Assembly: GCA_052327205.1 (NCBI GenBank)
Contig: CM126203.1
Coordinates: forward strand, 94,426,001 to 94,490,000
DNA length: 64,000 nt
Reading direction: 5' to 3'
DNA from: Somniosus microcephalus
Lineage: Eukaryota
A model generated the notes under the pieces. The model worked only from the letters and a program-made list of their open reading frames with translations, searched no databases and was not told the origin of the DNA. Positions 9,901 through 64,000 of this stretch are shown here, piece by piece. Both the position numbers and the translations under genes were made by a program. The number at the start of each line of letters is the position of its first letter. Within the stretch, counting starts at the first letter, position 1.

Positions 9901-10206
9901 TCCCCTTATTATTCCTTATCTCCACCCAAACTGTTTCACTATCCTGCTCCTTTGACCCAATATCATTTCTCTGTATTATAGTGATTCCTTCCTTTATTAA
10001 CATAGCCACCCCACCTCCTCTCCCTTCCTGCCTGTCCTTCCTGATTGTTAAATAACCTGGTATGTTTAATTCCCAGTCATGGTCACCCTGCAGCCATGTT
10101 TCTGTAATGGCCACAAGATCATACCCATATGTCATTATTTGTGCCGCTAACTCATTCATTTTGTTACGAATGCTACGTGCATTCAGATAAAGAACTTTCA
10201 AATATG
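6968..10206 (-). mobile_element. 5'-truncated CR1 LINE (CR1-B) inserted in the RT of element A
   Basis: (GAACATAA)3 tail from 6965 with GAA microhomology; joining 6967 to 10207 restores in-frame TAFE-AGGKLYQF (cf. TAFKANGRLYQF in element C). No TSD. Confidence 0.92.
7413..10200 (-). pseudogene. CR1-B ORF2 (endonuclease + RT) with a frameshift near 8960
   Basis: ORF 8963-10243 (YLNARS, AITETW, MGDFN, SDH) and ORF 7413-8939 (PQGSVLGP, FADD). Confidence 0.92.
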
Positions 10207-13134: not shown

Positions 13135-14085
13135 TTAGTTTAAACCCTCCCCAACAGCACTAGCAAACACTCCCCCTAGGACATCGGTCCCGGTCCCGCC
13201 CAGGTGCAAGCCGTCCAGTTTGTACTGGTCCCATCTCCCCCAGAACTGGTTCCAATGTCCCAGGAATTTGAATCCCTCCCCCTTGCACCATTCCTCTAGC
13301 CACGTATTCATCTGAAATATCCTTCTATTTCTACTCTGACTAGCACGTGGCACTGGTAGCAATCCTGAGATTACTACCTTGGAGGTCCTATTTTTTAATT
13401 TACCTCCTAACTCACTATATTCAGCTTTTAGGACTTCATCCCATTTTTTACCTATATCGTTGGTACCTATATGCACCACGACAACTGGTTGTTCACCCTC
13501 CCCCTCCAGAATGCCCTGCAGCCGCCCCGAGACATCCTTGACCCTTGCACCAGGGAGGCAACATACCATCCTGGAGTTTTGTTTGCGGCTGCAGAAACGC
13601 CTATCTATTCCCCTTACAATAGAATCCCCCAGCACTATAGCTCTCCCACTCTTTTTCCTCCTGTCCTGTGCAGCAGAACCACCCATGGTGCCAGGAAGTT
13701 GGCTGCTGCTGCCTTCCCCTGATAAGCCATCTCCCTCAACAATATCCAAAGTGGTATATCTGTTTGAGAGGGGGATGGCCACAGGGGACTCCTGCACTAC
13801 CTGCTTGCGCCTACTACTCTGCCTGGTGGTCACCCATTCCCTTCCTGCCTGTGCAGCCTTTACCTGCGGTGTGACCAACTCCCTAAACGTGCTATCCACG
13901 ATGTGCTCAGCATCGCGAATGCTCCAGTATGTATCCATTTGCAGCTCCAGCGCCACAATGCGGTCTGTCAATAGCTGCAGCTGGATACACTTCCCACACA
14001 CATGGTCGTCAGGGACACAGGAATTGTCCCTGATTTCCCACATAGCGCAGGAGGAGCATGCCACGGGGCCGAGCTGTCCTGCCAT
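13135..14085 (-). CDS. CR1-A ORF1p: zinc finger/leucine zipper + SGNH esterase domain, intact 316 aa
   Basis: CxxC...CxxC, heptad leucines, GDSI, HIGTND, DGLH motifs typical of CR1 esterase ORF1. Confidence 0.9.
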   Translation of the reverse strand: MAGQLGPVACSSCAMWEIRDNSCVPDDHVCGKCIQLQLLTDRIVALELQMDTYWSIRDAEHIVDSTFRELVTPQVKAAQAGREWVTTRQSSRRKQVVQESPVAIPLSNRYTTLDIVEGDGLSGEGSSSQLPGTMGGSAAQDRRKKSGRAIVLGDSIVRGIDRRFCSRKQNSRMVCCLPGARVKDVSGRLQGILEGEGEQPVVVVHIGTNDIGKKWDEVLKAEYSELGGKLKNRTSKVVISGLLPVPRASQSRNRRIFQMNTWLEEWCKGEGFKFLGHWNQFWGRWDQYKLDGLHLGGTGTDVLGGVFASAVGEGLN

Positions 14086-14294
14086 GAATTACCCTTTAAT
14101 TAATTTAAATCAAATCAATACCACTATTTACACTACAATTAAAGGATATACTCAAGGGCCCTTGGTTACTAGCACTCCCCAATACACAACAGAGACCTTA
14201 GAAACTATAACCACAAAAATTAAGACTGTCTAAATTTTATAAACTATTAATCTTAACTGTCAAACTATATAGTATAAATACTCACCTGGCCATA

Positions 14295-36869: not shown

Positions 36870-38005
36870 CCCAAGGAAAAATTAGGACAGATTGGTCAAA
36901 GAGATCGGTTTTAAGAAGCGTCTTAAAGGAGGCAAGAGAGATAGAGAGGCGGAGAGGTTTAGGGAGGGAATTCCAGAGCTTAGGGCAAGGCTGCTGAAGG
37001 CACGGCCACCAATGGTTGAGCAATTAAAATTAGGCGTACTACAGAGGCCAGAATTGGAGGTGCGAAGATATCTCAGGGTGGTGGGGGGTGTTGTGGGGCT
37101 GGAGAAGATTACAGAGATAAGGAGGGGTGAGGACACGGAGGGATTTGAAAAAAAGGATGAGAATTTTTAAATCGTGGCGTTGCTTAACCAGGAGCCAATG
37201 TAGATCAGCGAGCACAGGGACTTGGTGCGAATTAGAACACGGGCAGCCGAGTTTTGGATGATCTCAAATTTACGTAAGGTAGAATGTGGGAGGCCAGCCA
37301 GGAGTGCGTTGGAATAGTCAAGTCTAGAGGTAACAAAGGCATGGATGAGGCTTTCAGCAACAGGTGAGCTGAGGCAAGGGCGGAGACGGGCAATGTTATG
37401 GAGGTGGAAATAGGCAGACTTAGTTATGGCACAGATACATGGTCGGAAGGTCATTTCTGGGTCAAATATGAAACCAAGGTTGCGAACAGTCTGGTTCAGC
37501 CTCAGACAAGTGCTAGGGAGAGGAATGGAGTCGGTGGCTAGGGAACGGAGTTTGTGGCGAGGACCAAAGACAATGGCTTCGGTTTTCCCAATATTTAATT
37601 GGAGGAAATTTCTGCTCATCCAGTGCTGGATGTCAGACAAGCAGTCTGACAATATAGAGATAGTGGAGGGGTCGAGAGAAGTGGGGGTGAGGTAGAGCTG
37701 GGTGTCATCAACGTACATGTGGAAACTGATGCTGTGTTTTTGGATGATATCGCCGAGGGGCAGCATGTAGATGAGAAATAGGAGGGGGCCAAGGATAGAT
37801 CCTTGGGGGACACCAGAGGTAACGATGCAGGAGCGGGAAGAGAAGCCATTGCAGGTGATTTTCTGGCTACGATTAGATAGATAAGAATGAAACCAGGCAA
37901 ATGCAGTCCCACCCAGCTGGATGATGGTGGAGAGGCATTGGAGGAGGATGGAGTGGTCAACCGTGTCAAAGGCTGCAGACAAGTCAAGAAGGACGGGGAG
38001 GAAAT
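36870..38005 (-). mobile_element. L2 LINE RT fragment
   Basis: ORF 37167-37982: SAAFDTVDH, GVPQGSILGP, YVDDTQLY, SRLDYSN. Confidence 0.9.
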
Positions 38006-40059
38006 CAGGAAAGATTGAGCAGACTGGGGCTCTTTACTCCAGAAGAGGGAGGACTAAGAGGAGACGTGCATGTAACTTGTATTATTTACATATCTCAACA
38101 ACTTGTGTGATGACACGCTAAAGTGATATACGCATATATCTCAGGATCTATTTTACAGTACCAAGTTCTTTCAAGACAGTGATGACTTGTGGTGAGTTCA
38201 GCAGTTAGACCAAATTCAAAATCAATAAATCATACTGGGAGAAATCAACTTAGTCAATTTACATTATATTTTTATTCAGGCCTTTTAGGAAAATCCTGAT
38301 GGATCCAATGCATTTAAAACCACATTGATAATTTTGAGTATACTGACAAACATAGCAACATGTGAAATAGATGTGTAGAATAATTTTAAATATGTATTGA
38401 AGAAAAAAATATAGCTGAACATTGGAAAATTTAGAGTAAATTCAGTAAATTTCACCAGATTGAATTAAATTAATGGGAACATAATATCTGATGGGGTCTA
38501 ATGAATCAAAGGTTTGCCAAATAAATGGTTGCTGCTGGCATCCCTATTCTCTCACAGAAAACATTTTCACAGTAGTACAGCTTTGCTAACCTTTGCATTA
38601 GATCGGGAAAAACACTTTTTCTGAGTTTTAATGATACAAATAAAAACTGATTTTTAAAATGATTTTCTCTGAATTTCCCCAGTTATTTTGAGGTCCAATT
38701 TTTACTCCCTAATTTTCTCCTGGTTTTTGAATCTAAAAATAAAACCTGAAAACACTCAAAAACATGTTTTTAAATTGGCAATAAAAACTGACTAATGGTC
38801 CTTATTTGTAACAAATTAAATCATTTACAAAAATAATGAAGTGTTTAACTGATGAATTTTTCTTACAAATACATGGATTTTTTTTTATAACTTTAAATTC
38901 TGATTGAATCCAGTGCTGCCGACTTGGTTGTTCCTCTCCCTTATTTAGGTAGAAGGCAAACACAGTGAGAAAATGAGCCTAGTAAGCTTCTGCAGCCCTT
39001 CTGAAAACAAAACTGAGGACAAACAAACAAACCTATTTCTTATGTGATAGTTTGATTACCTCATCACAAAAATTACTGTGGAGAATGTGTTTTTTAATAC
39101 AGCAAAGTACTATCTTACTTTGAGTATTTTCTGTAAGATTGAATATGTCAAGTGCAATACAATACAAAACCACTTTGGAATGAAGAACCACGCTATCAAG
39201 CACAGTTAGCGATGTTTGTGAAATAGGCTCCATAGCCAATGCAAACTGACGGCCACATTTGTTGCATGCCCTTTGTTGTCCATTTCCTGACTCTTGCTGG
39301 TTGACATTTCTATAAAGATTCTTTTCTTCTGCTGTTAACACTTGAAACTGAATCAGTTATTGTTTATAGATATTCATAATATCAGTATCTCACTTTTGTG
39401 TAATTAATCTTGCATTAACTTTAATAATTGAACTGTACGGGCTGATAACATGGTGTTTTCCTGCCTTTCAAAGAGCACAGGAGTGCATGGTGGGTAACCC
39501 CTGCAACCTCTGGGGCAAAATAGTTTTGTAAAAGGATTATAATGTGCTACTACTTGTTAAGTCTGTGAATTATTTAGTTAATTAAAACAGACTAATGAGT
39601 AACAATAAAAACAGGTCTTTACTGGTTGGAGGTAGGGACTATACTGAATACAAGATTACTGCACAGTGCTTATATACCGGTGTGTTCACCCCCGGTATTA
39701 CGTCTACAGCAGCCTGAGAAAGTAGTACATCTCTTAAGGTGGAACAGGCTTAAGCTCTCTTAAGGTGGAACAGGTTACATACACAACACTCCTCCCTTCT
39801 TAGCTTTATAGTCATCCCCCCCATTTAACATAACGTAATAACATATATACATATATAACTTCATGTTTAACGTAACATATCACAGATTCAGTCTCTGCGG
39901 AAAACAGTTCACAGATTCAATCTCTGTGGTGTAGTCGGTTCACGTTACTCATTCAATAGTCCTTTCATGGATTTAACAGCTTGAACTTCCGAACTGATTT
40001 GGCTCCGTTCGGAGGGACCACGTGTGTGATCTGGTAGAGGTGATAATGGTTCAGATGGG

Positions 40060-42348
40060 TCATCTTCTGTTTTTACTTTTCCTTTTCTGCTTCTTGGAGA
40101 CTCTCTGGGCTCCATTGTCAGCTGCCACAGCTGCCAGCTGCATGCGCAGTTCCTCCTTCTCTTCCTCCTGTTTCCGTCGTAGAGCCAGCTTCTCCCGATG
40201 TTCCGTAGACTTTTGGTGCTCCTCCATGATTTCTGCACTTTGGGAGTCGAAGTTACAAGCTGGGCAGGACAGGACATCGTAATATTCGGTGTCGTCCACC
40301 AGGTCATGGTAATATTCGGTGTCGTCCTGAGCTAGACCAGTGAGAGGGTCGTCTATTTCCTCCATACCCAGCTGGACGTTAGCCAGCTCTTGTTCCAAAT
40401 CCAGACATCTTTCCTGAAGAGACTTCTTCATGTGTACCTCTGCATCCAGCTTTTTCTGGGCTTTCAGCAAGTCGTTTACTAGTGACCTCATTTGTGATTT
40501 TAATACTTCAACTTCCTTTGGAGATTGATCGATCGGACTATGCAATCCCTCTACCGGAGCAGCTGTTTCAGCGGTCTGTTGTTCTACATTGACGTGAGTC
40601 AGCGTACTTTTGGCATCCAATGGCTGCTCTGTTGCAGTCGTTTCAGTCTGTGTCGTCACATCAGCCATCTCAATGACTTTTGAGAGCTCCGAACCCTTTT
40701 CCTTTGAAGATCGCAGCTCGTGTTCAAGTTTTTCCCATTTCAGAGTCTTGTCCCTCAGCATATGGAGTTGGCTGACCGTTAACTCTTCTGACACCAGATT
40801 ATGGCACGCACCTTCAGAACCTGAATCAGCTTTGATTCGTTCGGCCTCCTCGCGCAGATGGTTGGTGTGCTCCTGCTCCATTTTCTCCATCAGTTGCTTC
40901 TGTTGACTTTCCAGATTCTCCCACTCTGTAACAAAGAACTTTTTTATTTCATTCATCTCTTGCTCAAAACGGCGAATCATTTGTTCTAATTGCTGTTGTA
41001 GTTTGAAATGGAGTTGAGTTCGAGCCCAGTGTCCCTCAAAAATGTGCATATCAGTAGACTTGACAGACTCAGAATTCTCTGTTAAACTATGTTGTTGTTG
41101 CTCAGTGGAATTCTGTGCTGAAACTTTGTCTTTTGCACATGGGTTGGTCTTACCATCATCAGTTCTAGAGTCTGGGCTGATTATCTGCACCGAGTTCTCA
41201 CTCTTTATGGCTTTTAGCGAATGCCAGTCCATATTTATGTTTCTAAACCACTCCCGGCCTAGTAGTGGTGGACCTCCCTCCGGTAGCACATATAAGTCCA
41301 TTATTTGACTTCCTTCGCCCTTGTTGGCCACTGCAACCTTTACTGTCCCGATGGGGTACACTCTCTGCCCCGTGTAGGTTGTCAATATAATCTCCGTATC
41401 CTGTAGGGGAATATGTTGGAATAACCTTCTGTAATCTTTCTTATTCATGACCGACAATGCCGATCCAGTGTCCAATTCCATTTTTACTTGGACTCCTTCT
41501 ATCTGAAGAGTAACCCAAATTGTCTGGAGGTCTGCACCCTTACCAACGTTGAGTACCCTTAAGCTAGCCAGTTCAATACTGCTTGCGTCTGAATCGGACT
41601 CCTGTTCGGCCACCTTGTGTACCTTTGCGTATTTCCCTTGCGGTGACTTCTTGTTGCTGGTCTTCTTCGCTGACCTGCATACTCTAGCTATATGTCCAAG
41701 CCTTCCACAAGTTCTACATTCTTGGTTTTTAAACCAACACTGGTTCTGATCATGCGTTGTCTTTCCACAACGATAACATTTGCCAGAACTCACACCCAAT
41801 TTGTGTGCACTGAGCTCCGGTGACCGTAGCTGCATTACTGCCGTGCCTCTCGCTGCGGCTTCGTGTGCTGCTGCCATAGTGACCACCTTCTCAAGCGTCA
41901 GCTCATTCTCCTCGAGCAGTCGCTTTTGTGTATCCTGTTTAAATAAACCACACACAAATTTGTCTCGAAGTGCCTCTGTCAGTCCCGTTCCAAACTGGCA
42001 ATATTTCGCTAATTTACGCAATTCCAGCAAATATTCAGCATTGCTTTCATGCTGTAGCTGCCTTCTGTCGTAAAATTTAAATCGTTCCGCTAGCATCAGC
42101 GGTGTGGGGTTTAGATGATCTTTCAGGACAGTAACAATCTCATCGAACGTCTTATCCGCCGGTTCATCTGGTGATAACAGGTGTTTCAATTGCCCGTATG
42201 TCTTCGCACCCATTAAATTTAATAATGTTAGAGCTTTATCTTGGTCACGAATTTTATTGGCCTTACAATAATTTTTTACTCTTTCAACATATATGGCCCA
42301 ATCTTCGAGGTCACTATCAAAGGTGCTAATATTCCCGTGTTTAGGCAT
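40060..42348 (-). CDS. 762-aa Gag-protease fused to STK10/SLK-like, optineurin-like and DNAJC21-like segments
   Basis: aa1-225 Gag with two CCHC, aa275-378 protease (ELDTGS, LLGREW), aa439-507 STK10/SLK-like coil, aa508-660 OPTN-like coil, aa~675-762 DNAJC21-like C2H2 finger and basic tail; no stops. Confidence 0.9.
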
Positions 42349-42755
42349 TGTAGATTTGCAATTTCTCAGATTTTATTTTCTTTACTTGTTATCAAAGATG
42401 GCGGCTTCCCGCTCTTGCCGTCGTCCTCCGCCCACAAAATGGCGGTTTTCCCGCACTTGGCGGTCTTCACCCGTCCCCCGACGCCGTCTCCCTTCAGCCC
42501 CCGAGTGCGGCCCTTATCAGCGGATGCGATCGATGGCCCAGCTGCGCCTCGCACTTGAAAGCGGCCCGGCCCTTATCTGCCGATCGCTATCGCCCTATAC
42601 CTCTCTCTTCCCCAGTCCTGTCTTCTACTCCGGTTCACAAGCTGATGGAGGCTTCAGGGTCCTAATGCCTGTCACTTCCAGTGGGGTGGTGAGTGGTGAG
42701 GTTTGAAACCTCTCTTCAACCGCCGTGGAATAACTGCCGCAGGGTAAGAACCTGA

Positions 42756-42765
42756 CTCGTCGCCA
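42756..42765 (-). promoter_or_regulatory. Primer-binding site of element B (tRNA-Ser(GCT) type)
   Basis: TGGCGACGAG one base after the 5' LTR; complementary to the ...CTCGTCGCCA tRNA end. Confidence 0.8.
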
Positions 42766-45700
42766 GTGTTAAGTCTGTGAATTATTTAGTTAATTAAAAC
42801 AGACTAATGAGTAACAATAAAAACAGGTCTTTACTGGTTGGAGGTAGGGACTATACTGAATACAAGATTACTGCACAGTGCTTATATACCGGTGTGTTCA
42901 CCCCCGGTATTACGTCTACAGCAGCCTGAGAAAGTAGTACATCTCTTAAGGTGGAACAGGCTTAAGCTCTCTTAAGGTGGAACAGGTTACATACACAACA
43001 CTACTTCTGTTCACAGCATACATATGGTGCAAGTTTCTGATCATGGAAGGCCTGAGTCTGCCTATGGAAACTGCATTTAGCTGTAAATATGATAGAGTTG
43101 GAGGAGAGCCTGAATTGTTAACATCCATTAATTAAAGGGAGTATGGTATCTGCCCCTCCAACCTCACATGCCACGACTCATTAGCCACATTTAAAGGAGT
43201 TCTGTCCTGGAACATAAACTACCTGTAATTCCCAGGAGAGAATGTGGAGCTAAAACCTCCATTCCAGTCCTTCTCCTTGAACAGCCAACATGCATAGACT
43301 CCAAAGAGATTAGAAGTGACCTGAAACTATCCCATAGATGTACTAACACCTTCAGTCTGGAGAGTCATTTGTTTCTCACTAAATTAATTGCTTTGATATT
43401 TTGCTTTGGACTTTGGAAGCTCATTTTATCTCCGTGAGTCGTAAAGAATCGTCCTTGAGATTGCAATTTCTAATGATGAATGGAAAGCTGTGGGTATCAG
43501 ATTTCTAGGTGACTGTTATCTTTTTGGGTCTTTTACTCTAGGATCACTCTCCTAGGTGAATTCCAACTTCCAGTGCCTTTGGGAATGCCTTCACAGCATT
43601 ATTATCCAGATAAAATGTTTGGTAATGTGCCCAGGGCAGTGAATAAAAACCGTGTCTCTCAGTTCTTCTTAAGCTACTAAAATTCTTTTCCTTCCACCAG
43701 ATCTATCTTCAGTCTATGATAAATAGAATATCATATCCCGACCTCAATTTAACTATAAATTATTATTAAATAAACAAGCAAATAAGTAACAATAATATAA
43801 CATACATATATAATATGTGGAAATGCTATGATCTATCCCCTTAATGGGGAAAATAGTAAAAGGTTGTGAATCTAAATACTAACCTGTATTTCTATAAACA
43901 ACTGTTCTGTACATAGCTCTCCTCTTTCTTGTCTTGTTACAAGCTTTGGGAGCTTAGTTTGTTCGATCTAAGTTTGTTCGATCAACTACACTGAGGACTG
44001 TTCTCCATTTGTTCCTTTTGTGTCTCCTGATCTATTGCCAAAGCTCATTAAAAATTAATAGCTGCCAACCTCATTCAAAAAGCAGCAAGCTACCAATTAT
44101 AACTGGATCAATCATGAAGTCTATATATTTGAAAATCATGTTAGATACCCTCTCAAGTCTTCTACAGGGAAACTATAAAAAAAATTGGAAACATATGTAA
44201 AGAAATAGGTTCAGATTGTAGGTAGCTTTTCAAAATCTGATGTATTGTACCTGATTTAAAAATACAGCTGCCAGACCAAAACAAGACAGTATTCCTTCAT
44301 ATTTGTCACAGTGGCACCTAGTAATCACTTGTGGGAGAGTGAACTTAAAATGTTATACTATATCTATCATCTTGCCAGGTCACCTACACCCAGAGATTGC
44401 TAATATTTTGGGGGGTAATTGTGAAGGGGTCTGCAATTTATTCCACGTCTTCTGGGATTCTCCCATGATTTGGGATATTTTAAGCAATGACCTTGTACAT
44501 ATTAGTGCCAATTCAGGTTTTTTTCAGTTATGATGGAGGAAATGCTGTTTCAAATGAGAAGATTGTAACTTTATATATTTTTTGATAGGATGTGGTCTGG
44601 CACTTGTATTTCTGCATCTGGTGCAAAGCGATCAGTATATAGTTGACATGATATCCTGCATTCATAGGTTTTTTTGGAGGGGGTGGTGGAAATATATATA
44701 ATCATCATGACCAAAGAATAGCTAGAGTATCCTAAGTGGATAGGTGTAAAAAAAGTTTCAGCTTGGTATTCTTACCACTGAACATTTTATTAGGTAGTGA
44801 TTTAAATGACAGTGAAGTTGTAATCACCTTAAATGATAGGGAGGTGGGTAAGACTACAGAAGGAGCCAAGCCCATGCAATATCAATGCAGGTGGCTTTGG
44901 AGGCACCTAGAGATTTTACAGGAGCAGAGGCTTCAGCAACCTAGAAAGACTAGTGGGCAGTTGTTCACAGGCAGAGGACCTGTTGTTGTAACTCTGAGCA
45001 CAGTGTAGGTGTGCAGGATAGCAGCAGGCCACCTGCACAGTGTTACTCATTACGCTGCTGCATATTGTGCACTGAGCAGGTCTGGCAAAGATTCAGCACA
45101 CTGACCTTACACAAGGGATGATGCAATGGCAAGTGGGGGGCTTTGACCTTGTAGCACTGTCCAATCTGTCATAGTCATTTGTCCAGAGAAGATGTTGACA
45201 TCTAATCAGAGAGGACGCATGATTAACAGTTCAATGCTACATCTCATCCAAGACATGGTAACCTTATGTAACTTGCCTACTTGAGAGAAGGGTACGGAGT
45301 CATGTAATTAACACATTAGCTGAGATTAACAGTCCGAGCTTATTGGAAGGCACAGTTGCTCAGTTAGGCAGTGATGAAGTCCGTGCAAAACTTTCAGTAC
45401 TAACACCAGACAAAGCTGGCTATGTGAGGTAATTTGTCTGTGATGGCAGCTGGGCAACAACCAGCCTCCTTACCACACAGTACACAAGACTGACAATTAG
45501 GGGAAGGATAAAATTTGTTACAAAGAAGAAAACAGAGTAGGAGTTAAGGGCAGTTTTGCAGACATGTTGGAAGTGAGTAGCAGTGTCCCACACAATTCAT
45601 GTCTGGAGCCACTTTAGAAAGCTGTGAACAAATCAGGACCTACCTGCAGTGTGAACAAAATGAGACCCTCTTAACACTGAAGAAATAGGTAGGTTTAATG

Positions 45701-53353: not shown

Positions 53354-56300
53354 ATTAGTGGCAGTACACAATAGCGACCGTATCGAATGGAGCACATCTG
53401 GGAGGACTTCCTGCCAGCGGGAGATAGGGAGGCCCTTGGTCCTTAGAGCTAGAGTGACTGCTTTCCATACTGTCCCGTTCTCTCGCTCCACTTGACCGTT
53501 ACCCCGGGGGTTGTAGCTGGTGGTACGGCTTGTGGCGATCCCCCTGGACAGCATGTACTGGCGTAGCTCTTCACTCATGAAGGACGCCCCCCTATCCGTA
53601 TGGATGTAGCTCGGCATACCGAACAGGCAGAACAGGCTGTTGAGGCATTTAATGACCGTGGCGCTGGTCATGTCTCGGCAGGGGAAGGCGAATGGGAAAC
53701 GGAAGTATTCGTCCACAATGTTCAGGAAGTAAACATTGCGGTCGACTGACGGGAGGGGGCCCTTGAAATCTAAGCTGAGCCGCTCAAAGGGCCGTGTAGC
53801 TTTGATTAAGTGGGCTCTATCTGGGCGGTAGAACCGAGGCACTCAGCGCAAGTGCGGCAGTTCCTGGTCAGAGACCGAACTTCCTCAATCGAGTAGGGTA
53901 AGTTGCGGGACTTTATGAAGTGGAACAGCCGTGTGACCCCGGGGTGGCAGAGGTCGTTGTGGAGGGTCTGTAGCCGATCCCCGGTGGTGCTGGCACACAT
54001 CCCTCGTGAGAGGGCATCGGGGGATTCGTTAAGGGCCCCTGGCCGGTAAATGATGTCATAATTGAAGGTGGAGAGCTTGATCCGCCACCTAAGAATCTTA
54101 TCATTTTTAATCTTCCCCCTCTGTTTATTATTGAACATAAACGCTACCGACCACTGGTCGGTAAGTAGGGTGAAGCGTTTGCCGGCTAGGTAGTGCCGCC
54201 AGTGGCGCACTGCCTCCACGATGGCTTGGGCCTCCTTTTCCACGGAGGAGTGTCTGATCTCGGGCCCTTGGAGGGTCCTCAAGAAGAAAGCTACGGGCCG
54301 CCCCGCCTGGTTGAGGGTGGCCACCAAGGCAAAGTCAGCCGCATCACTTTCCACTTGAAAGGGAGTGTTCTCGTCCACTGCCTGTAGCGTGGCCCGCTCA
54401 ATATCCCGCTTAATGCTTTTGAAGGCGGCATGGGCCTCAGCAGAGAACGGAAAAGAGGATGCTTTCAAGAGGGGGCGGGCTTTGTCGGAGTAGTTGGGGA
54501 CCCATTGGGCATAATAAGAAAATAACCCCAGGCACCTTTTCAGGGCTTTGGGAGTGTTGGGCAGGGGCGGCTCCCGTAGGGGGCGCAATCGGTCGGGGTC
54601 TGGTCCAATTTCCCCATTCTCCACCACGCTGCCTAGTATGCAGAGGCGCGTGGTGTTGAAAACGCACTTGTCCTCGTTGTAAGTGAGGTTGAGTTTTTGT
54701 GCGGTTTTCAGGAACCTCTCGAGGTTCGAGTCGTGATCCTGCTGGTTGTGACCGCAGATGGTGACGTTGTCGAGGTAGGGGAAGGTTGCCTGCAAGTGGT
54801 GGTCATCGACCATGCGGTCCATCTCCCTCTGGAAGACCGAGACCCCATTCGTCACCCCAAAGGGGACTCTGAGGAATTGGTAGAGGCGTCCGTTCGCCTT
54901 GAAGGCGGTGTACGGGCGGTCCTCTGGTCTGATAGGGAGCTGGTGGTACGCTGACTTGAGGTCGATGGTGGCGAACACCCGGTATTGGGCGATTTGGTTC
55001 ACCATCTCGGATATGCGGGGTAGCGGGTAGGCGTCTAGCTGGGTGTATAGATTAACTGTCTGGCTATAATCTATCACCATCCGCTTCTTCTCGCTACCCC
55101 TCACCACCACCACTTGGGCGTGCCACGGGCTGTTGCTGCGTTTGATAATGCGCTCCTTCAGGAGCCTGTCTACCTCGGTCGCGATAAACCGCCTGTCCTC
55201 CCAGCTGTACCTCCTGCTTTTGGTCGCTATTGGCCGGCAGTTGGGAGTAAGGTTCGCGAGTAGCGAAGGCGGCTTTACCTTCAGGGTAGCCAGACCGCAC
55301 ACTGTGAGGGGCGGCTGGGACCCACCGTACTTGAGCGTGATGCTTTGGTGGTGGCACTGGAAATCCAGGCCCAAGATCACGCTCGCACATAGATTCTTCA
55401 TGATTAGTAATTTAAAATTATCGTATACAGTTCCGTTAACGGACAATTGTACCGCGCAGTAACCCATAACGGTCGATGTCTGGGTTTTATCAGCCATAGA
55501 GATGGTGCCCCGAGCAGGGACCACCGTTACAGAGAGTTGTTGTGCCAGTTCCAGGTGGATAAAACTCTCCGTGCTTCCACTGTCAAATAAACATTTAACC
55601 CCGCACCCATTTACCTCGATGTCCACCATTGATTTGGATAGCGGGTGCGGTCTGGTCTGGTCCACTGTGACCGATGCCACTGTAGGGCCCTGATCGAGAC
55701 AAGATGGCGTCCACGCTGTCTGCTCACAAGATGGTGGACCCCACGAGGTCGGGCAAGATGGCGTCCAAGATGGCCGCTCCCACGGCGCACACGCGGCGGT
55801 GGCGGGTTTTCCAGCGGGGTTCCCTCTGCACACCTTCCCGAAGTGCCCCTTCTTACCGCACTTAAAGCAGGTGGTGCCTTTCGCCGGGCACAGGTTTCTG
55901 GTGTGCTTCGGCTGCCCGCAGAAGTAGCAGTTGGGGCCCCGACGCGTCGCGGCTGTCGTAGGGCTTCTGGGGGGAGAGCGGGGCCCCGATGGTGTCGGGC
56001 TGCCGGGCGGGGAAGATGCCTTCCAAGATGGCAGCGCCCTTGGTGCACACGTGGCGGCGTGGGCGGCGCGGGCTGAAGAGTAGGCGTCCGAGTTTCTCTG
56101 GGCCACATCCAGGGATCGCGCTGTGTCCACAGCCTGTTTCAGGTCCAATCCCGTTTTTTCCAGTAATCTCTGCCGGATGTAAGTGGAGCTGAGGCCTGTG
56201 ATAAAGGCATCACGAACAAGCTCGTCAGTGTACACTGCGGCTTTTACATCTTGGCACTTGCAGTCTTTGCCAAGCGTTTTCAGGGTGACTAGGAACTCAT

Positions 56301-56622
56301 CCAGCGATTCCCCAGGTCGCTGTGCGTGACTAGCGAGCAGATGCCTAGCGTACACCTCGTTCATAGGCTGCTGGTAATGCGCCTTTAGGATGTCGCAGGC
56401 GGCCGAGTACGTGTCGGCGTCTTGGATGAGGGGGTAAACCCGGTGGCTTACCCAATTCCGCAGGATTCCGAGTTTCATACTTTCAGCGTCCGTAGCGCCT
56501 GTGATGGCTGCGGAATTGTCCAGGAAGAATTCCATACACTTAAACCAGTGTCCGAATCGTGCCGATGCATCCGAAGCATGCGGGTCCAAATCCAAACGTT
56601 TGGGTTTCAAGAGTTGGTCCAT
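53354..56622 (-). pseudogene. Element C gag-pol (frameshift near 53840)
   Basis: ATG 56622 MDQLLKPKRL; two CCHC, LFDSGS, YLDN, RNase H, HHCC, integrase core in ORF 53324-53842. Confidence 0.92.
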
Positions 56623-56942
56623 TGCATTGAAAATTGAGTTAATAAAATTGATGTGCCTCAATGAATCCGAGACTCAACGTTAACGGAGCAAAGCAAGGCT
56701 TTTATTTACTCGGAAAGTAATACACATTGGAGAAGTGTCTCTCATCCAGAGATCTGCTGTACTGGATGTGAGACACGCTGGGCCTGCTTAAGTAGGGGCC
56801 AGGTATGGGCGGAGCCCTACACACAATACAATACAGGTAAGGAAATGAAACTGAAACTAAACTAAACACAGAGAATACAGTGCCTGATGAATGGCATATT
56901 TCATCACACACCCCATCCGTCCCATCCAACCCACAGCCGTGA

Positions 56943-59900
56943 CTAGAGCCAGCGCAGCCTGTTTATCTGTGTTCTCTCCGATACGATGAGTGGAAAAGAC
57001 CCCTTTTGGAGATGGAGGTGGAGAAGGAGAAGGTGACGAGGACCTATCTGTTAGACACGGGGGCATCATGCACCATGGTCTACTCAGCTAACCCCACCAC
57101 CTCACCTCTCTCCAACGGGGTCCCATACAGTCTATCGGGGTTCACGGGTAGGGAACAGGCTGGCTCGTTTTCCATCCCGCTCACCATTCGGTTAGGACCG
57201 CTCCGCTCCAAGTGGACCTGTGTCCTGATGAAATGGGACGTGGAGGGTGGAAGAGTGGTCCTGGGGGCCGACTTTATTGTAGGCCATGGGATCCTAGTGG
57301 ATTTGAGGAATCACTGCCTTTGGGGGGCAGGTAAAGTAAAGAACGGAGAGGTCGTAGTAATCCCGGGAAAGGAAGGGAAGGGGACACTCTGCACCATGAA
57401 GCCCAAAGAGGATTATAACCTCGGGCTCATGGTCAGCAACACCCCACCAGAATTCCAGGCATTTGTGCAGGCCCACCTGGCCACATTTGCCACTCACAAG
57501 CACGACTGCGGGAGGGTCACAGGGTTTGAGGTCAGCATAGACGGGAACCCTGTGGCCCGACCACAGAAACAATATAACTTCCCCAGGGAAGCAGAGCCGG
57601 ACATGGAAGCAGCCATGTCCTCGTTAGTGCAGCAGGGAGTTCTGAGACCGATAGCTACCCACGTGAATTCTCCATTATGGCCGGTCAGAAAGCCGGACAA
57701 TTCCTGGAGGGCCACGGTGGATTATCGAGTGCTCAATAGTAACATCACAGCCTGCGCACCCACAGTAACAGCAGTTGCCGACCTCATCGGGAGTATTCCA
57801 GCATCCGCGACCACTTTCACGGTGCTGGATATTTCAAATGGGTTTTGGTCCATCCCTGTAAGGAGGGAGGATCAGTACACGTTTGCCTTTACGTTTAAGG
57901 AGCAACAGTACACATGGAACTGTTTGCCTCAGGGCTTCCACAACAGCCCCAGCATTTTCCATCAGTGCATGGCCAACAGTTTGAAGGATTTTAGCCAGCC
58001 CAGACAGTTGGTTCAATATGTGGATGACCTGCTCCTGTTCACTGATTTGAAAGAGGAGCATGGTCCGCTATTGGCCGAACTGCTGGAGCTGTTAGGGCAG
58101 AAGAGTTTCAAAGTAAACCCCAAGAAAGCGCAGATCGGCCAGCAGGAGGTGAAATTCCTCAGTCTGACCGTGTGCACTGGAGAAAGGGCCATAGATAAGG
58201 CTAGGAAGGAGGCGGTACAAGAACTACCGGTCCCTAACACAGTAACGGGTGTGAGGTCGTTTCTAGGGCTAACCGGGTACTGCAGAGACATTATTGAGGA
58301 CTATGCAGCCACCGCAGCCCCTCTGCTCCGACTCCTACACAAGGGAGTGGAGTGGCTTTGGGATGAGGGTTGCCAGGCAGCATTTGTCAGGCTCAAGAAA
58401 GACTTGCAGACCGCGCCAGCTTTAGGGGCCATAGATGGGGGGAAAGAGTTTTTCCTGGAGGTAGCAGCCAGCGGGGACAGCCTGAGTGCTGTGCTGCTCC
58501 AAGAGCGGCACGGCCGGCTGCGGCTGGTGGTCTACTCCTCTGGGATACTCACAGATGTGGAAAGGAGCTATTCCAATTGTGAGCGGCATCTTTTGGCCAC
58601 ACATTGGGCTGTGAAAAGATCATTGATCTTCACAGGCACCTCTCCCATCACCCTCCTCACCCATCACACACCTACCCAGATGCTTCTGGACGGGAGGATC
58701 AAGGATGGGACAGTGAGCAGTGCCCGCATTGCCCGCTGGACTTTGCTCCTCTCACAGATGGATCTAAAGGTGAAGGGTCTCTGTGAGCCAAGGCTTGCAG
58801 CCAACATGGTATATCCTGGAACAGCCCACTGTTCCATTGAAGGGGTTTGGGAAGTAAACACAGGTTTACGGGCCGGGATACATCCCACAGGCTGCGAAAT
58901 CTATGTAGACGGTTCCAGCACGGTATCTGCTGGCGAGCATCTCACGGGGTGTGGGGTTTACGACCCAGCGCAAACATTGCCTTGGCGATTAAGCTCCCCA
59001 GCACCATGAGCGCCCAGCAGGCTGAACTGTCTGCGGTGGTGTACGTTGTTACACACCCCGAAATCTTCCCCACCCCCTATGCGATTTGCTCGGACAGCAT
59101 GTTCACGTGCAATTCATGTACGGAGTACCTGGCCATCTGGTCCCGCCGCGGATACACCTCCGCTAACGGGAGACCCCTCACAGTAAAACCCCTGCTGGAA
59201 AAGATCCTGGCAGCAGTGGGGGAGGAAGGGGAGGTTTTCATCCACAAGGTGAAGGCCCATTCCTCCACAGAACCCCGCGGCCAAGGCAACCAGCAGGCTG
59301 ACTTGCTCGCCAAGGAGGGTGCCCGCACAGGCACTTTCTGGGACCCATTTGGGTCCAGACCCATGGCGGCGGTCAGAGGTAGGGACGGGACCCAAGGGAG
59401 TGTAGGGGTAGCATTAGCCCCGGACCTAAAGACGGTCCAAGCCGAAGACCCTGTCCTAAAAGCAGTCCTCAGCGCTGTAGCTGCGGGAAATGGAGTAGAA
59501 GGTCCGTATGGCACAGCGACCCTCTCCGTTAAAGAGGGCATGCTGTTCCGGGGGGAACAGTGGGTTGTGCCGCAGCAGCACCGGAGGGAATTCCTTCAAC
59601 TGGCCAATGAGGGTCCAGGAGCGGGACACCCCAGGCCTGAGACCACCTGGCAACAGGTGGAACAGGCGGGATGGTGGCCGGGACTCAGGGACGATGTCCA
59701 TGAATTCTGTGCAGGCTGTCTTGTGTGCGCTGCGAACAACCCCGACCCCCACAAAAGGAAAGTCCCTATGGGACACGTCAGGAGGGTAGAGGAACCATGG
59801 CAGTCGATACAAGTCGACTACATTGGGCCCCTGCCCACCGCCCAGGGAGGCTATAAGTACTGCCTAGTCCTGGTGGACGTGTTTACCAAGTGGGTAGAGG

Positions 59901-61150
59901 CCTTTCCCTGCAGAACAGCCACAGCTCTGGGTACTGCCAGGAACCTGGTCCGGGAAGTGTTCTCGAGGTGGGGAGTACCACAGTATGTGGAGTCCGACCA
60001 AGGGAGTCACTTCACCGGACAGGTGATGCAGAACACCCTGATGCTGCTAGGCATTGAAGGGAAATGGCACATGGCCCACAACCCCCAGTCATTGTGGATT
60101 GTAGAACGCATGAATCGGACCCTGAAAGAAAGCTTAAGAAAGGAAACGGTGGACTCGCCCCGTAAATGGGCCGAGGTCCTACTGTTGGTTTTGATGGGGA
60201 TCCGGGCCAGCTAGTCTAAAAGCATGGGGTATTCCCCGTACGAGCTAATAACTAGCAGGGTTATGCGGACCCCTACCCATGTACTAGCCCCGGTGCTCAC
60301 GGAGGGTCAACTCAGGGAGGTAAACCAGGACAGACAGGTTTGCCCGAAACCTCTTTGAGCACCTGAAGCAGGTCCATGAGCAGGCGGCTGGAAACATGGA
60401 AGGCAGCATCGGAGTAACCGATTGCTGCTCGAACCCAGAAAGCACCATGAGTGGGAGGTAGGAGATCAGGTCATGGTAAGAAACTATGCCCGAGTAGGGA
60501 GTTTGGAGCCATTGTACATGGGGCCCTACAGCATTGTAGATAAAGCCAGCCCCATGGTATACGCCGTGAAGATGCCCCGGTGTACAAAATGGTTTCATAT
60601 CAACCAGTGTAAGCTGTTTACACCTGAAAGGGGAAAACAGCCAGTTGGGAAAAGGGCTGAGGATAAAGATCCTCAGCCTGCAGCAGGAGCGAGTTCACAG
60701 ACTGCACAGGCAGGCGCTGTGGCTTGCTTAAAGGGAGGGGCCATCCCGTCCATTGATTGGGACACTCCCCCACTCTTCTGGGATCCAGACGAGGGGAAGG
60801 GACCTGAGGGCGAAAACCCCGCCCCTAACCCAGGTGTAGAGAGGGAGGGACCTGAGGTCGAAAACCCCGCCTCGGACCCAGCCATGGGACCTGGGGGCGG
60901 AGGCTCTCAGCTCGCAGCAGCAGGCTGCGAAAAGTTACCTGCCCCCAGCCCAGGTTTGGGAGGGGTCAAGCCTGAGGGAGCAGCGGTTCGGGTTAAAGGC
61001 CCAGCGGCCAAGAAAGCCCCACCCGTCAAGGCCCCCAGAAGGTCCCCACGGACGCCCCAGCCGAGAAAGCCATGGTCACCTGCCCTCCAGTTATCAAGGG
61101 CCGCCCTTGAGCTAGGGAAGGGCCCAAGGACAGAGGTCCTCAGCCAGTAG
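56943..61150 (+). pseudogene. Element D pol: PR-RT-RH1-RH2-IN with frameshifts/stops
   Basis: LLDTGA, NSPLWPVRKPD, LDISNGF, LPQGF, YVDD, CERHLLA (degenerate RH), IYVDGSS/SAQQAEL/SDS/KVKAH/GNQQAD, IQVDYIGP, SDQGSHF, GPY. Confidence 0.92.
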
Positions 61151-61516: not shown

Positions 61517-64000
61517 TGTTGTGTCGGTACCTTTTTACCTAGACACAATTCGAACTCAGAACTCAGAGATTCAAACATGAAGTGCTTTATTCGAAGGGAA
61601 AAGGAAGTTCTGGAGAGTTCCGAACAAAGAGAGCTAAACTTAACCAAGAGAACACCCAACCATTTATCTGCTGTGACAGCGCCACCACAGGTGGGAGGAG
61701 AACACACAATACATAACTTATTCCTCCCCTCTTAAATGGAAGGTCCACATTATTCCTCAACAGGTAAGTTACTTTCAATGCACTCAACGAACCTAGGGTA
61801 GAGGTAGACTGCCTCAACCCCTGACTTTACCCTGGGGTTTATTCTGCCCCAGTCTTGTGGGTAAGTCGCTAAGCCTACAGATCCAAGCATCTTGGAGTCC
61901 GCCGCTCTCTGACAGGATACCGGCGATCATCGCTGGCTTCCACAGCAGTAGGCATTGACACAGGCCTAGATGGAGAAGGTGCCTGTGTCAGTCGAAAGTC
62001 AGGAGCTTGCACAGGTGGAACAGTCTCTTTGACTTCCTGTGTTGGAGAACAGCACTGTGGCAAAGGATGCTGGTTTGCAGTATCATCTGGAAACAGTTCA
62101 GGCCAACCAGCCGTTGGAGCCTCTGTGGCTGTCTCTGCTCCTAGCAACAGTTGATCTGTGTGTCTTCTCCAGACGACGTCCTCAGCAGTCTCAACCATGT
62201 AAGACACAGGGCCCGTCTGCGCGATCACCGTAGCAGGAACCCATTTCGGTCCAGTGTTGTAGTTTCGAGCTAGGACGTGCTCTCCCGGATGAAACCGTCT
62301 CTCCTTGGCTCTTTTCTCTCTCTTTTCAACTTGAGCTTGTTGTTGACGATGGACAATCTGCTCTGCCCTTGGAGGTTTGAATAAGTCAAAACTTCTCCGC
62401 AACTGCCTCTTCATCATGAGCGAAGCGGGGGAAGTTTTCGTTGTGGCATGCGGCTCGTTCCTGTAGGACAACAGGAAGCTGTTCAGACATTGGTGGATTG
62501 AGCCCTGACCTTGCGATGCGTTCATGGCGTGCTTCAAAGTTTGCACAAACCTTTCCACCTGGCCGTTAGTAGAGGGATGATAGGGCGCAGACCTGATGTG
62601 TTGGACACCATTCACATGCAGGAAGGTTGCAAACTCCTGTGATACAAATTGTGGACCGTTGTCACTTACGAGTTCCGGTGAGCCATAACGGCTGAACATC
62701 TCACCAAGTTTCTCAATTGTTTTCTCTGCCGTGGTAGACCTCATCACAGCGACCTCCGGCCACTTGCTACGAGCGTCTACAACCACCATAAACATCTTCT
62801 GTTCGAAAGGACCGGCGAAGTCCACATGTACTCCCTGCCACACTTCTGCAGGCCAATCCCAGGGGTGTAGGGTTGCCAGCTATGGAACATTCCGGACCCT
62901 TTGACATGGGGAACATGTTTTGGCTTTCTCCTCAATATTCCCATCGAGACCTGGCCACCAGAAGTAGCTTCTTGCCATTTCCTTCATCCGAACCATCCCA
63001 CTGTGGCCTGTATGAAGTTGTTGCAGTATAGGTTCCCTCAGAGGTGGCGGAATGATGACACGGCGTCCCCAAAGAAGACAAACTGCCTGGGCGGAGAGCT
63101 CATTTCTTTTTGAAACATAAGGTTTCAAACTAGGAGAATCTCCTATAGCTCTCCCTCAAATGACATTGTCGATTACCTCAGACAGGGCTGGATCGTTGCG
63201 GGTGTACCTTCGCACCTGAACTGCAGTGACAGGTGCTCCCTCCACTTGTCTAAAGTAGAAGATGTCTATCTGACGAGGCTCTGGGGGAGTAACAGGCAAG
63301 GGTAGCCTCGAGAGACCGTCTGCGTTGCCGTGCAAGTCTGATTTGCGATATTTGATGTCGTATGTGTGTCCTGACCACCTTTGCATCCTGCTTGCAGCGA
63401 GAGACGGAATTCCGGTGTGGGGCCTGAAGATTGAAGTCAATGGATGGTGGTCCGTCAGGAGTGTGAACCTTCTCCCAAACAGGTACTGATGAAATTTTCG
63501 AATTCCAAAAACGATTCCCAAGGCCTCGCGCTCGATCTGCGCATAGTTACTCTCGGCCTTGTTCAAGGTGCGTGATGCGAAGGCGATAGGTTTCTCTTCA
63601 CCCGAAGGCATGATGTGGGATATGACTGCTCCCACACCATATGGTGATGCATCACATACTAGCTGCATGGGTAGCTTTGGGTCGAAGTGTGTCAGGGCCT
63701 CCGATTTCAGCAATGCTTTCTTTGCTTGGGCGAAAGCTTCGTTGCACAGTTCAGTCCATTTCCATGTTTTGCCTTGACATAGCAACTGATGTAACGGCTT
63801 CAGCAATGTTGCTAAGTCTGGAATAAACTTCCCATAGTAGTTAAGTAGCCCCAGAAATGAACGTAACTGGCTCACATTCTGGGGTGCTGGGGCCTCCACG
63901 ATCGCCTTGACCTTTGACGGCGCCTTATGCAGGCCAGTAGCGTCAATCACATGCCCCAGGTACTCAACTGAAGACTGAAAGAATTTACATTTGTCTTTAT
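61517..64000 (-). mobile_element. Mag-like Gypsy element E, 3' part (3' LTR ~61517-61720), runs off the window
   Basis: ORFs 63156-63950 (RT end, CDASPYG RNase H), 62880-63128 (HHCC), 61875-62843 (VDFAGPF, SDNGPQF); PPT AAGAGGGGAGGAA 61733-61721; AATAAA 61591-61586. LTR boundaries inferred. Confidence 0.88.

What the first reader, a model, noticed from the sequence alone, without database searches (positions are those of the whole stretch)
40369..40827. Captured block 2: optineurin central coiled-coil fragment
aa 508-660 contains [45 protein letters not shown] and [41 protein letters not shown], collinear with recalled human OPTN ([24 protein letters not shown]...ETQTE...[41 protein letters not shown]). 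LIR and UBAN are absent. OPTN is an autophagy receptor and TBK1 adaptor (established); a protease-released or capsid-tethered coil interfering with autophagic clearance of particles is speculation.
Basis: partly seen in the sequence, partly recalled or inferred. Interest (0 to 1): 0.82.

Follow-up and report, generated by a model that had tools for sequence, protein, structure and literature searches.

The report
Shark retrotransposon serially capturing host RNAs
A jumping gene in a shark has replaced its own enzymes with in-frame pieces of host RNAs, first one full turn of a circular RNA and then optineurin and others, and its many copies record each capture step by step.

Summary
The optineurin (OPTN) match is real. 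It is 69% identical to shark OPTN and is spliced RNA, crossing three host exon junctions. It lies in a young, non-autonomous Gypsy-type LTR element (39555-43000, minus strand) whose RT, RNase H and integrase are replaced by host cargo in frame with Gag-protease.

Sister copies give the order of events:
1. One full turn of a circular STK10 RNA: exact back-splice junction in 14 of 14 copies, the whole 1,245-nt circle in 2 of 2.
2. OPTN overwrote that junction, with leucine zipper and LIR (1,158 exact junction matches).
3. DNAJC21 was added.
4. The window's subfamily deleted zipper and LIR (1,628 matches).

Short microhomologies mark the switch points examined. Frame is kept at 13 of 14 junctions in DNA-found copies, but OPTN residues show no robust constraint. 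The family is transcribed. Best reading: cargo captured by template switching and kept as in-frame filler. The autophagy-interference idea is unsupported for this copy.

The parts
39550..39554 (.). 5-bp target-site duplication (CTACT), left
   Evidence: the same 5 bases stand at 43001-43005
39555..39788 (-). 3' LTR, 234 nt, TG...CA, identical to the 5' LTR
39789..39803 (-). polypurine tract
   Evidence: sequence
39948..40066 (-). decayed STK10 exon 8 and exon 9 remnants, now out of frame behind the stop; the far end of the captured circle
40060..42348 (-). single ORF, 762 aa from the first Met: Gag - 2 zinc knuckles - protease - STK10 - OPTN - DNAJC21; no RT, RNase H or integrase
40063..40347 (-). 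DNAJC21-derived zinc finger and basic tail, diverged; protein homology shown for P0001 693-769; host exons not found
40355..40834 (-). OPTN-derived block (the finding): coding exon 3 piece 40792-40834, exon 5 piece 40695-40798, exon 6 40525-40696, exon 7 40409-40527, exon 8 piece 40355-40410
40792..40798 (-). exon 3 to exon 5 deletion junction (6 of 7 nt microhomology) that removed the OPTN leucine zipper and LIR
   Evidence: 1,628 exact matches to the junction, control 0
40826..40834 (-). STK10 exon 12 to OPTN exon 3 switch point, 9-nt microhomology CAAAGCTGA
   Evidence: shown on L078 and the window element
40826..41204 (-). STK10-derived block: exon 9 pieces 41027-41204, exon 11 piece 40950-41037, exon 12 piece 40826-40944 (PKK coiled coil)
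41242..41514 (-). aspartic protease with intact DTG motif
   Evidence: (PF13975 E 7e-5, below the curated cut-off)
41674..41787 (-). two CX2CX4HX4C zinc knuckles
41790..42348 (-). Gag capsid region
   Evidence: PF03732 E 0.005, weak; dN/dS 0.13-0.21 against older copies
42756..42765 (-). primer-binding site TGGCGACGAG; its match to tRNA-Ser is recalled, not tested
   Evidence: sequence
42767..43000 (-). 5' LTR, 234 nt
43001..43005 (.). 5-bp target-site duplication, right

Best explanation
The OPTN block is cargo of a non-autonomous Gypsy-type LTR retrotransposon, picked up by reverse-transcriptase template switching onto co-packaged host RNA.

Shown: (1) An ancestor swapped RT-RNase H-integrase for exactly one turn of STK10 exons 8-12 joined 12-to-8, entering and leaving at the same 14-nt site in exon 9. 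(2) Spliced OPTN mRNA (coding exons 3-8, with zipper and LIR) replaced the back-splice junction at 9-nt and 7-nt microhomologies. (3) A DNAJC21 piece was added. (4) The window's subfamily sits on a different Gag and LTR, deleted the zipper and LIR in frame, and amplified recently.

Inferred: the first template was a circular RNA, and RNase H destroyed the template behind the polymerase, which limits copying to one turn. RT and integrase come in trans from autonomous relatives. The element keeps Gag-protease because it benefits in cis. Selection acts mainly on keeping translation open to near the 3' end (RNA stability, packaging), so the OPTN coil is largely in-frame filler, tethered to Gag or cut off by the protease, with no OPTN-specific job.

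Odds: about 0.9 for the origin, about 0.6 for the filler role.
For: Spliced OPTN: 3 junctions in the window copy, 5 in L077 and L078. Back-splice junction exact at both splice sites in 14 of 14 loci fetched, out of 39 non-gene rows. Full circle in 2 of 2 fetched, 1,245 nt, a multiple of 3, with no exon 7 or 13 sequence. Microhomology at all 7 junctions displayed. Nested architectures, and a tree of the shared STK10 piece that puts window-type copies inside the DNAJC21-bearing group (support 0.97). An autonomous-type relative has RT, RNase H and integrase between the same protease and the same tail. Own 5-bp TSD in 28 of 30 loci; the other 2 form a tandem pair. LTR-LTR divergence 0.17% in 27 copies. 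Gag and protease dN/dS 0.11-0.27. Frame kept at 13 of 14 junctions in DNA-found copies against a null of 0.43-0.50, P 1e-4 to 9e-4. OPTN residues: only 1 of 8 bias-corrected tests below P 0.05. Unrelated Ig cargo in a sister branch. A premature stop in gag lowers packaging of RSV RNA through NMD (PMC5035971, passages).
Against: Raw dN/dS of the OPTN piece is 0.35-0.52, P 0.0015-0.03, and corrected values stay at or below 1 (0.51-0.95), so weak constraint is not excluded and power is low (36-52 changes). The window subfamily itself has an out-of-frame last junction that leaves about 270 nt between stop and LTR. No inverted repeat was found between STK10 introns 7 and 12 at E 1e-10, and the circular RNA was not seen in RNA. 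In the tree, the order of the STK10-only and early OPTN branches is poorly resolved. I chose the junctions by eye from the copies at hand, so the in-frame P values are approximate. The direct autonomous partner of the window's LTR was not found.
Confidence: 0.7

Rival explanations
1. One reading: the OPTN coil, released by the protease or tethered to capsid, acts as a dominant negative or decoy against host OPTN and protects particles from autophagy or TBK1 signalling.
For: Autophagy restricts L1, Alu and Ty1 (PMC4982230, passages). The family is transcribed in sense in one RNA run. The ORF is intact in 22 of 27 young copies. Raw dN/dS is below 1. Older subfamilies carried zipper plus LIR, and Yamano et al. 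show that OPTN can recruit ATG9A without its ubiquitin-binding domains (PMC7480101, passages).
Against: The window copy lacks CC1, zipper, LIR, UBAN and zinc finger. Its subfamily, the one with the most exact junction matches and the youngest LTRs, is the one that lost zipper and LIR. No robust constraint after correction. Branches without OPTN also amplified (958 candidates).
Confidence: 0.12
2. The cargo has a generic structural job: long coiled coils (STK10 PKK, OPTN) act as a spacer or oligomerisation arm that helps Gag assembly or protease dimerisation, so shape matters but the donor does not.
For: The STK10 PKK helix (exons 11-12) is kept in every architecture mapped while neighbouring pieces are deleted. 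STK10 piece against host: corrected dN/dS about 0.42, P 0.013-0.015.
Against: That comparison includes purifying selection on the host gene; against an older copy the value is 0.71, P 0.27. Much of the cargo is low-complexity linker or Ig repeats.
Confidence: 0.15
3. The STK10 12-to-8 junction came from a linear RNA (trans-splicing, exon repetition or a transient genomic duplication), not from a circle. The OPTN capture is otherwise as described.
For: Dong et al. caution that non-colinear junctions can arise otherwise (PMC4897178, main text). No flanking inverted repeats were found.
Against: Exons 8-12 are single copy in the 80 kb fetched. Entry and exit fall at the same 14-nt site after exactly one unit, which a circle predicts and a linear repeat does not. 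No exon 7 or 13 sequence in 2 of 2 full copies.
Confidence: 0.1
4. The locus is a domesticated host gene, or an assembly chimera.
For: Intact ORF and identical LTRs.
Against: 1,628 dispersed exact junction matches. Each sampled single insertion has its own TSD. Private changes are near neutral, pN/pS 0.81. Independent sequencing runs cover all 30 bins of the element.
Confidence: 0.02

Closest known systems
LTR-mediated retroposition (Tan et al. 2016, PMC5131818; passages read)
   Same: Internal ORFs replaced by partial mRNA; microsimilarity at switch points; both LTRs kept; multi-parent chimeras (a mouse 'Super' retrocopy from four genes); further rounds as non-autonomous elements.
   Different: There the cases number 3-15 per species, and 14 of 21 older ones are already broken. 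Here the cargo stays fused in frame to a conserved Gag-protease, more than 1,000 exact junction matches exist for each of two stages, intermediates survive, and the first template is non-colinear. The word 'circular' does not occur in that paper's main text.
circRNA-derived pseudogenes, mouse circRFWD2 (Dong et al. 2016, PMC4897178; main text read, supplements not seen)
   Same: Exact non-colinear exon junction, only circle exons present, association with LTR sequence, multiple copies (33 high-confidence).
   Different: They call the mechanism 'mysterious' and report only enrichment of LTR sequence in the flanks. Here both switch points, the one-turn length and the intact LTR-PBS-gag frame are visible, and the circle is coding in frame.
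Maize Bs1 (as cited in PMC5131818; original papers not read)
   Same: LTR retrotransposon carrying pieces of three unlinked host genes.
   Different: A plant element. The vertebrate setting, circular RNA origin and stepwise series are not reported in the passages seen.
Acutely transforming retroviruses with gag-onc fusions (recalled)
   Same: Replication-defective, pol replaced by spliced host RNA fused in frame to gag, dependent on a helper.
   Different: No env, germ-line retrotransposon, no sign that the cargo is selected for its host activity.
Optineurin (shark orthologues)
   Same: About 160 residues of the central coiled-coil region, 69% identical to sawshark OPTN.
   Different: No CC1, zipper, LIR, UBAN or zinc finger; not an autophagy receptor.

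Membership tests
Optineurin-derived sequence | significant alignment to OPTN orthologues and to the host gene | tested here: met
Optineurin as autophagy receptor | LIR motif and leucine zipper | tested here: not met
   deleted in the window copy; present in older subfamilies
Optineurin as autophagy receptor | TBK1-binding CC1, UBAN, C-terminal zinc finger | tested here: not met
   no match to OPTN coding exons 1-2 or 9-14 in any of the 52 loci mapped
Ty3/Gypsy LTR retrotransposon | TG...CA LTRs, short TSD, PBS, PPT | tested here: met
   identity of the primer tRNA is recalled only
Ty3/Gypsy LTR retrotransposon | Gag with CCHC knuckles and aspartic protease | tested here: met
   Pfam hits are below curated cut-offs, motifs intact
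Ty3/Gypsy LTR retrotransposon (autonomous) | RT, RNase H, integrase in that order | tested here: not met
   absent from the element; present in that order in the relative in L151, which shares protease and tail; so a non-autonomous derivative
Ty3/Gypsy LTR retrotransposon | placement in a named clade by RT phylogeny | not tested
   no reference RT set at hand; the Gypsy label rests on domain order and Pfam names
LTR-mediated retrocopy (Tan 2016) | intronless host sequence replacing internal ORFs, flanked by both LTRs | tested here: met
LTR-mediated retrocopy (Tan 2016) | microsimilarity at switch points | tested here: met
   9 nt, 7 nt, 8 nt and 6 of 7 nt where both parents are known; DNAJC21 and Ig junctions not testable because host exons were not fetched
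LTR-mediated retrocopy (Tan 2016) | co-transcription as one unit from the LTR | tested here: inconclusive
   short reads cover all 30 bins, sense-biased in X21, but give no full-length molecule
circRNA-derived retrocopy (Dong 2016) | exact non-colinear back-splice junction | tested here: met
   14 of 14 sister loci and 2 of 2 full copies; overwritten by OPTN in the window's own lineage
circRNA-derived retrocopy (Dong 2016) | only exons that lie inside the circle | tested here: met
   no exon 7 or 13 match in L168 and L169
circRNA-derived retrocopy (Dong 2016) | the parent circular RNA exists in cells | not testable with these tools
   needs RNase R RNA-seq; element transcripts carry the same junction and would confound ordinary reads

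The most novel reading that the evidence does not exclude
The family is a working sampler of RNAs packaged in shark germ-line particles, and its cargo is selected as protein. The captured OPTN zipper plus LIR put an autophagy-engaging module on Gag, either routing particles to ATG9A/LC3 membranes to the element's benefit or exposing them to clearance. Deleting exactly that module then helped the window's subfamily to the youngest burst, while the remaining coil still pairs with host OPTN. That would be a retrotransposon gaining and shedding an autophagy-receptor module within one genome's record. The LIR loss is confounded with a switch to a new Gag and LTR (79% and 73% identical to the older ones).
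Probability: 0.15. Interest if true: 0.92.

Novelty: new variant of a known kind. Interest (0 to 1): 0.74.

Why it matters
How circular RNAs get copied back into genomes was left open in the paper that found such copies (PMC4897178). This family shows both switch points, a length of exactly one turn and the LTR-Gag vehicle, and so gives a concrete, testable mechanism: template switching onto a packaged circle, ended by RNase H. It also preserves a step-by-step series of at least four in-frame host captures (STK10, OPTN, DNAJC21, titin-like Ig). That is a natural model for how gag-onc-like fusions and shuffled genes arise, and it lets selection on frame be separated from selection on cargo. Practically, over 2,700 exact OPTN-derived junction matches will distort OPTN, STK10 and circRNA quantification in these sharks.

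Tried and rejected
- Complex prediction, OPTN fragment with sawshark OPTN 226-400: no verdict (score 0.32, mark 0.34). Not used as evidence either way.
- Single-sequence AlphaFold2 model of the ORF: mean pLDDT 42, unusable; no fold search run.
- PDB sequence search found only zinc-knuckle matches and no OPTN chain.
- ESM Atlas gave one hit at 0.81, a lead only.
- No RNA holder was listed in the run index; expression rests on two added raw-read runs.
- Inverted repeats flanking the STK10 circle: none.
- PF21884 located a gene at C17:58.36 Mb that I did not pursue. DNAJC21 exons 1-4 lie at C1:2.65-2.68 Mb, but the zinc-finger exon was not in the 80 kb fetched, so that capture is shown at protein level only.
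- Exon skipping as the cause of LIR loss: rejected, both breakpoints are inside exons.
- DNA-level capture of OPTN: rejected, no introns.
- The C-terminal finger as the OPTN/NEMO zinc finger: rejected, it is DNAJC21-like.
- Raw NG86 dN/dS as proof of selection on OPTN: rejected. Private, post-insertion changes in the same block give pN/pS 0.40 (8 synonymous, 11 non-synonymous).
- The '14 of 15' binomial used a count made before verification; one search replaces it.
- No earlier scan findings. No tRNA genes in the window.
- Literature searches (top 7-20 rows seen of 219, 60, 28, 37 and 8 papers) listed no report of this shark element. Subscription journals, Repbase/Dfam and the supplements of PMC4897178 and PMC5131818 were not seen and may hold similar cases.

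Full report
**1. Observation.** The quoted peptides are in a 770-codon minus-strand frame, 40060-42372, first Met at 42348. Residues 512-740 retrieved 28 proteins of 1,725 candidates, 26 named optineurin and 2 unnamed with the same domains, best E 2.7e-45. Pairwise identity to sawshark OPTN is 109/157. The host is a shark by inference from these hits; the assembly has 6.4 Gb. I located the host OPTN gene at G000:C17:85871904-85906211 with 14 coding exons. The window block matches coding exons 3 (43 nt), 5, 6, 7 and 8, is 397/444 identical over exons 5-8, and crosses three exon junctions with no intron. So this is reverse-transcribed, spliced OPTN RNA. The assembled host gene has two extra single bases in homopolymers near the exon 5/6 border. 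I take these as probable assembly errors; this was not checked.

**2. The vehicle.** The ORF lies between identical 234-nt TG...CA LTRs with a 5-bp target-site duplication, a primer-binding site and a polypurine tract. It encodes Gag, two zinc knuckles and a DTG protease, but no RT, RNase H or integrase. Of 30 loci fetched, 28 have their own 5-bp duplication and 2 form a tandem pair. In 27 full-length copies the two LTRs differ by 0.17% on average, and 22 of 27 have an uninterrupted ORF. A broken autonomous-type relative (L151) has RT, RNase H and integrase between a homologous protease and the same C-terminal tail that older copies keep. The cargo therefore replaced pol.

**3. Other cargo.** Upstream of OPTN lie spliced STK10 pieces. 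Downstream lies a DNAJC21 zinc finger: 457 hits of 1,367 candidates with an older copy as query, the named ones nearly all DNAJC21, and E 1e-13 for the window's version. Its host exon was not found. In older copies STK10 is permuted: mid exon 9 to exon 12, then OPTN, then exon 8 to mid exon 9. STK10 exon numbers are mine and assume one coding exon before those fetched.

**4. A prediction tested.** The permutation, with both gaps within about 55 nt of exon ends, suggested a circular RNA whose back-splice junction OPTN had overwritten. Searching with the uncaptured end of exon 12 and start of exon 8 gave 958 and 971 candidates; each search scored 40, one being the gene. In 14 of 14 loci fetched, the last base of exon 12 joins the first base of exon 8. 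Exon 10 gave 88 candidates. Both copies fetched hold the whole circle: exon 9 from nt 146, exons 10, 11, 12, 8, exon 9 to nt 159. That is 1,245 nt plus a 14-nt overlap, in frame, with no exon 7 or 13 sequence. Both copies have private breaks in their ORF. Exons 8-12 are single copy in the 80 kb of gene fetched. Entry and exit at one site is what a circle predicts if RNase H removes the template behind RT; this step is inference. Against: I found no inverted repeat between introns 7 and 12, and the circle was not seen in RNA.

**5. Order of events.** Mapping 52 loci plus the two full circles gives a nested series: full circle; circle with an internal deletion; OPTN exons 3-8 inserted; a shorter OPTN form; DNAJC21 added; the window form. 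Microhomologies are 9 nt (STK10 to OPTN), 7 nt (OPTN to STK10), 8 nt (shortening) and 6 of 7 nt (exon 3 to exon 5). A tree of the shared STK10 piece nests the window-type copies within the DNAJC21-bearing group (support 0.97); deeper order is weakly resolved. Exact pattern counts: 1,158 for the spliced exon 3/4 junction next to the LIR and 1,628 for the LIR-deletion junction, with controls 0. Exact counts understate older families more. Older copies have LTR pairs 97.8-100% identical in the 17 of 20 loci where a pair was recovered, so the whole series is recent. The window subfamily's gag and LTR are only about 79% and 73% identical to those of older copies, while its cargo differs far less (dS about 1.0 versus 0.2). 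The cassette moved to a new chassis. A side branch (4 of the 14 back-splice loci) took titin-like Ig repeats instead (best PDB match titin, E 4e-49; donor gene not located).

**6. What is selected.** Gag and protease are conserved (dN/dS 0.11-0.27). The OPTN piece gives raw 0.35-0.52. With the mutation spectrum of 157 private changes it gives 0.51-0.95, with 1 of 8 tests below P 0.05, and the private changes themselves give 0.40 in that block. Protein constraint is thus neither shown nor excluded. The DNAJC21 piece runs above 1, not significantly. Frame is kept at 13 of 14 junctions in copies found by DNA search and 3 of 3 found by protein search, against 0.43-0.50 expected for microhomologies of 6-9 nt within such an ORF (P 1e-4 to 9e-4, approximate since I picked the junctions). 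The exception is the window subfamily's last junction.

**7. Expression.** At 95% identity, 9,874 of 16.65 million records of RNA run X21 and 8,125 of 14.40 million of X22 lie on the element. In X21 the OPTN bins 40334-40657 have depth 735-1,028 for first mates on + against 24-40 on -, which means sense RNA if the library is of the usual stranded kind. X22 shows little strand bias. The runs carry the label of an organism that may not be the window's species, and reads cannot be assigned to this copy. Three coded organisms hold half or more of the sampled words. No Gag-fused form appeared among named shark proteins, a weak negative since repeats are usually masked.

**8. Mechanism.** Best reading: template-switch capture in particles built by the element's own Gag, with RT and integrase supplied in trans, and selection for an open frame rather than for OPTN activity. 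A premature stop in gag reduces packaging of RSV RNA through NMD (PMC5035971, passages). Human OPTN recruits TBK1 by CC1, ATG9A by the zipper at 143-164, LC3 by the LIR around F178, and ubiquitin by UBAN and zinc finger (PMC7595642, PMC7480101, PMC6018216, passages). I place the shark zipper by its position just before the FVEI motif, from recall of human OPTN, not from an alignment. The window copy has none of these parts. Older copies had zipper and LIR, and autophagy does restrict retrotransposons (PMC4982230, passages). Any autophagy story therefore belongs to those copies and to the loss event.

**9. Known and new.** LTR-mediated, multi-parent capture with microsimilarity is known (PMC5131818, passages). 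circRNA-derived pseudogenes near LTRs are known, mechanism unresolved (PMC4897178, part 1 of 2, the main text). Gag-driven packaging of circRNAs is reported for HIV-1 and MLV (10.64898/2026.01.21.700838, abstract only). New here, as far as searches show: a complete one-turn circle inside an intact LTR-Gag frame, serial in-frame captures with surviving intermediates, and amplification to thousands of matches. Supplements of those papers were not seen.

**10. Verdict.** Observation confirmed; interpretation partly supported; new variant of a known kind; interest 0.74.

Noticed in passing
L163:1641-2588 (also L158, L162, L166): Sister branch with titin-like Ig repeats captured in frame inside the STK10 exon 8 piece; best PDB match titin, E 4e-49. 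Donor gene not located.
   Followed up: partly
G000:C17:85884655-85885539 (L090): The host OPTN gene as assembled has two extra single bases in homopolymers near the coding exon 5/6 border, which element copies lack; probably assembly errors.
   Followed up: partly
L116 / L152, G000:C3:354658271-354658948: Intronless copy of the STK10 C-terminal region (aa 753-977, 97% identical), outside the circle exons; probably an ordinary processed retrocopy.
   Followed up: no
L151:5600-9930 (G000:C1:2.656-2.660 Mb): Broken autonomous-type relative with gag, protease, RT, RNase H and integrase, lying between DNAJC21 exons; shares the C-terminal tail with the cargo elements.
   Followed up: partly
window 40063-40100 and ORF ends of L094-L113: Most forms end in a basic tail: integrase-derived in older copies, DNAJC21-derived in the window form after a frame change. 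Possibly a retained nuclear-localisation or RNA-binding signal; untested.
   Followed up: no
L019 and L022, G000:C12:20.22 Mb; also C11:172.58 Mb and C36:15.34 Mb: Tandem elements: L019/L022 share an LTR with one target-site duplication across the pair; the other two places show matches about 3.2-3.5 kb apart.
   Followed up: no
window 40270-40327: Tandem duplication of about 30 nt in the DNAJC21 piece (DDTEYY twice); its copy number varies between subfamilies.
   Followed up: partly
L105, L106, L101 (ORFs of 1,123, 1,167 and 1,018 aa): Longer ORFs than their siblings; may hold internal duplications or further captures.
   Followed up: no
window 5462-6988, 10108-12234, 53806-56673, 56943-60214, 61875-62879: Other LTR-element pol fragments; 56943-60214 has RT followed by a second RNase H and integrase, a retrovirus-like layout.
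   Followed up: no
window 2871-5055, 7413-10249, 13135-14088, 37167-38033: LINE-type endonuclease and RT frames, and an ORF with a GDSL esterase domain.
   Followed up: no
G000:C41:31.61 Mb (L064, L065): Second CC2-LZ gene, less similar to OPTN; probably NEMO (recalled).
   Followed up: no
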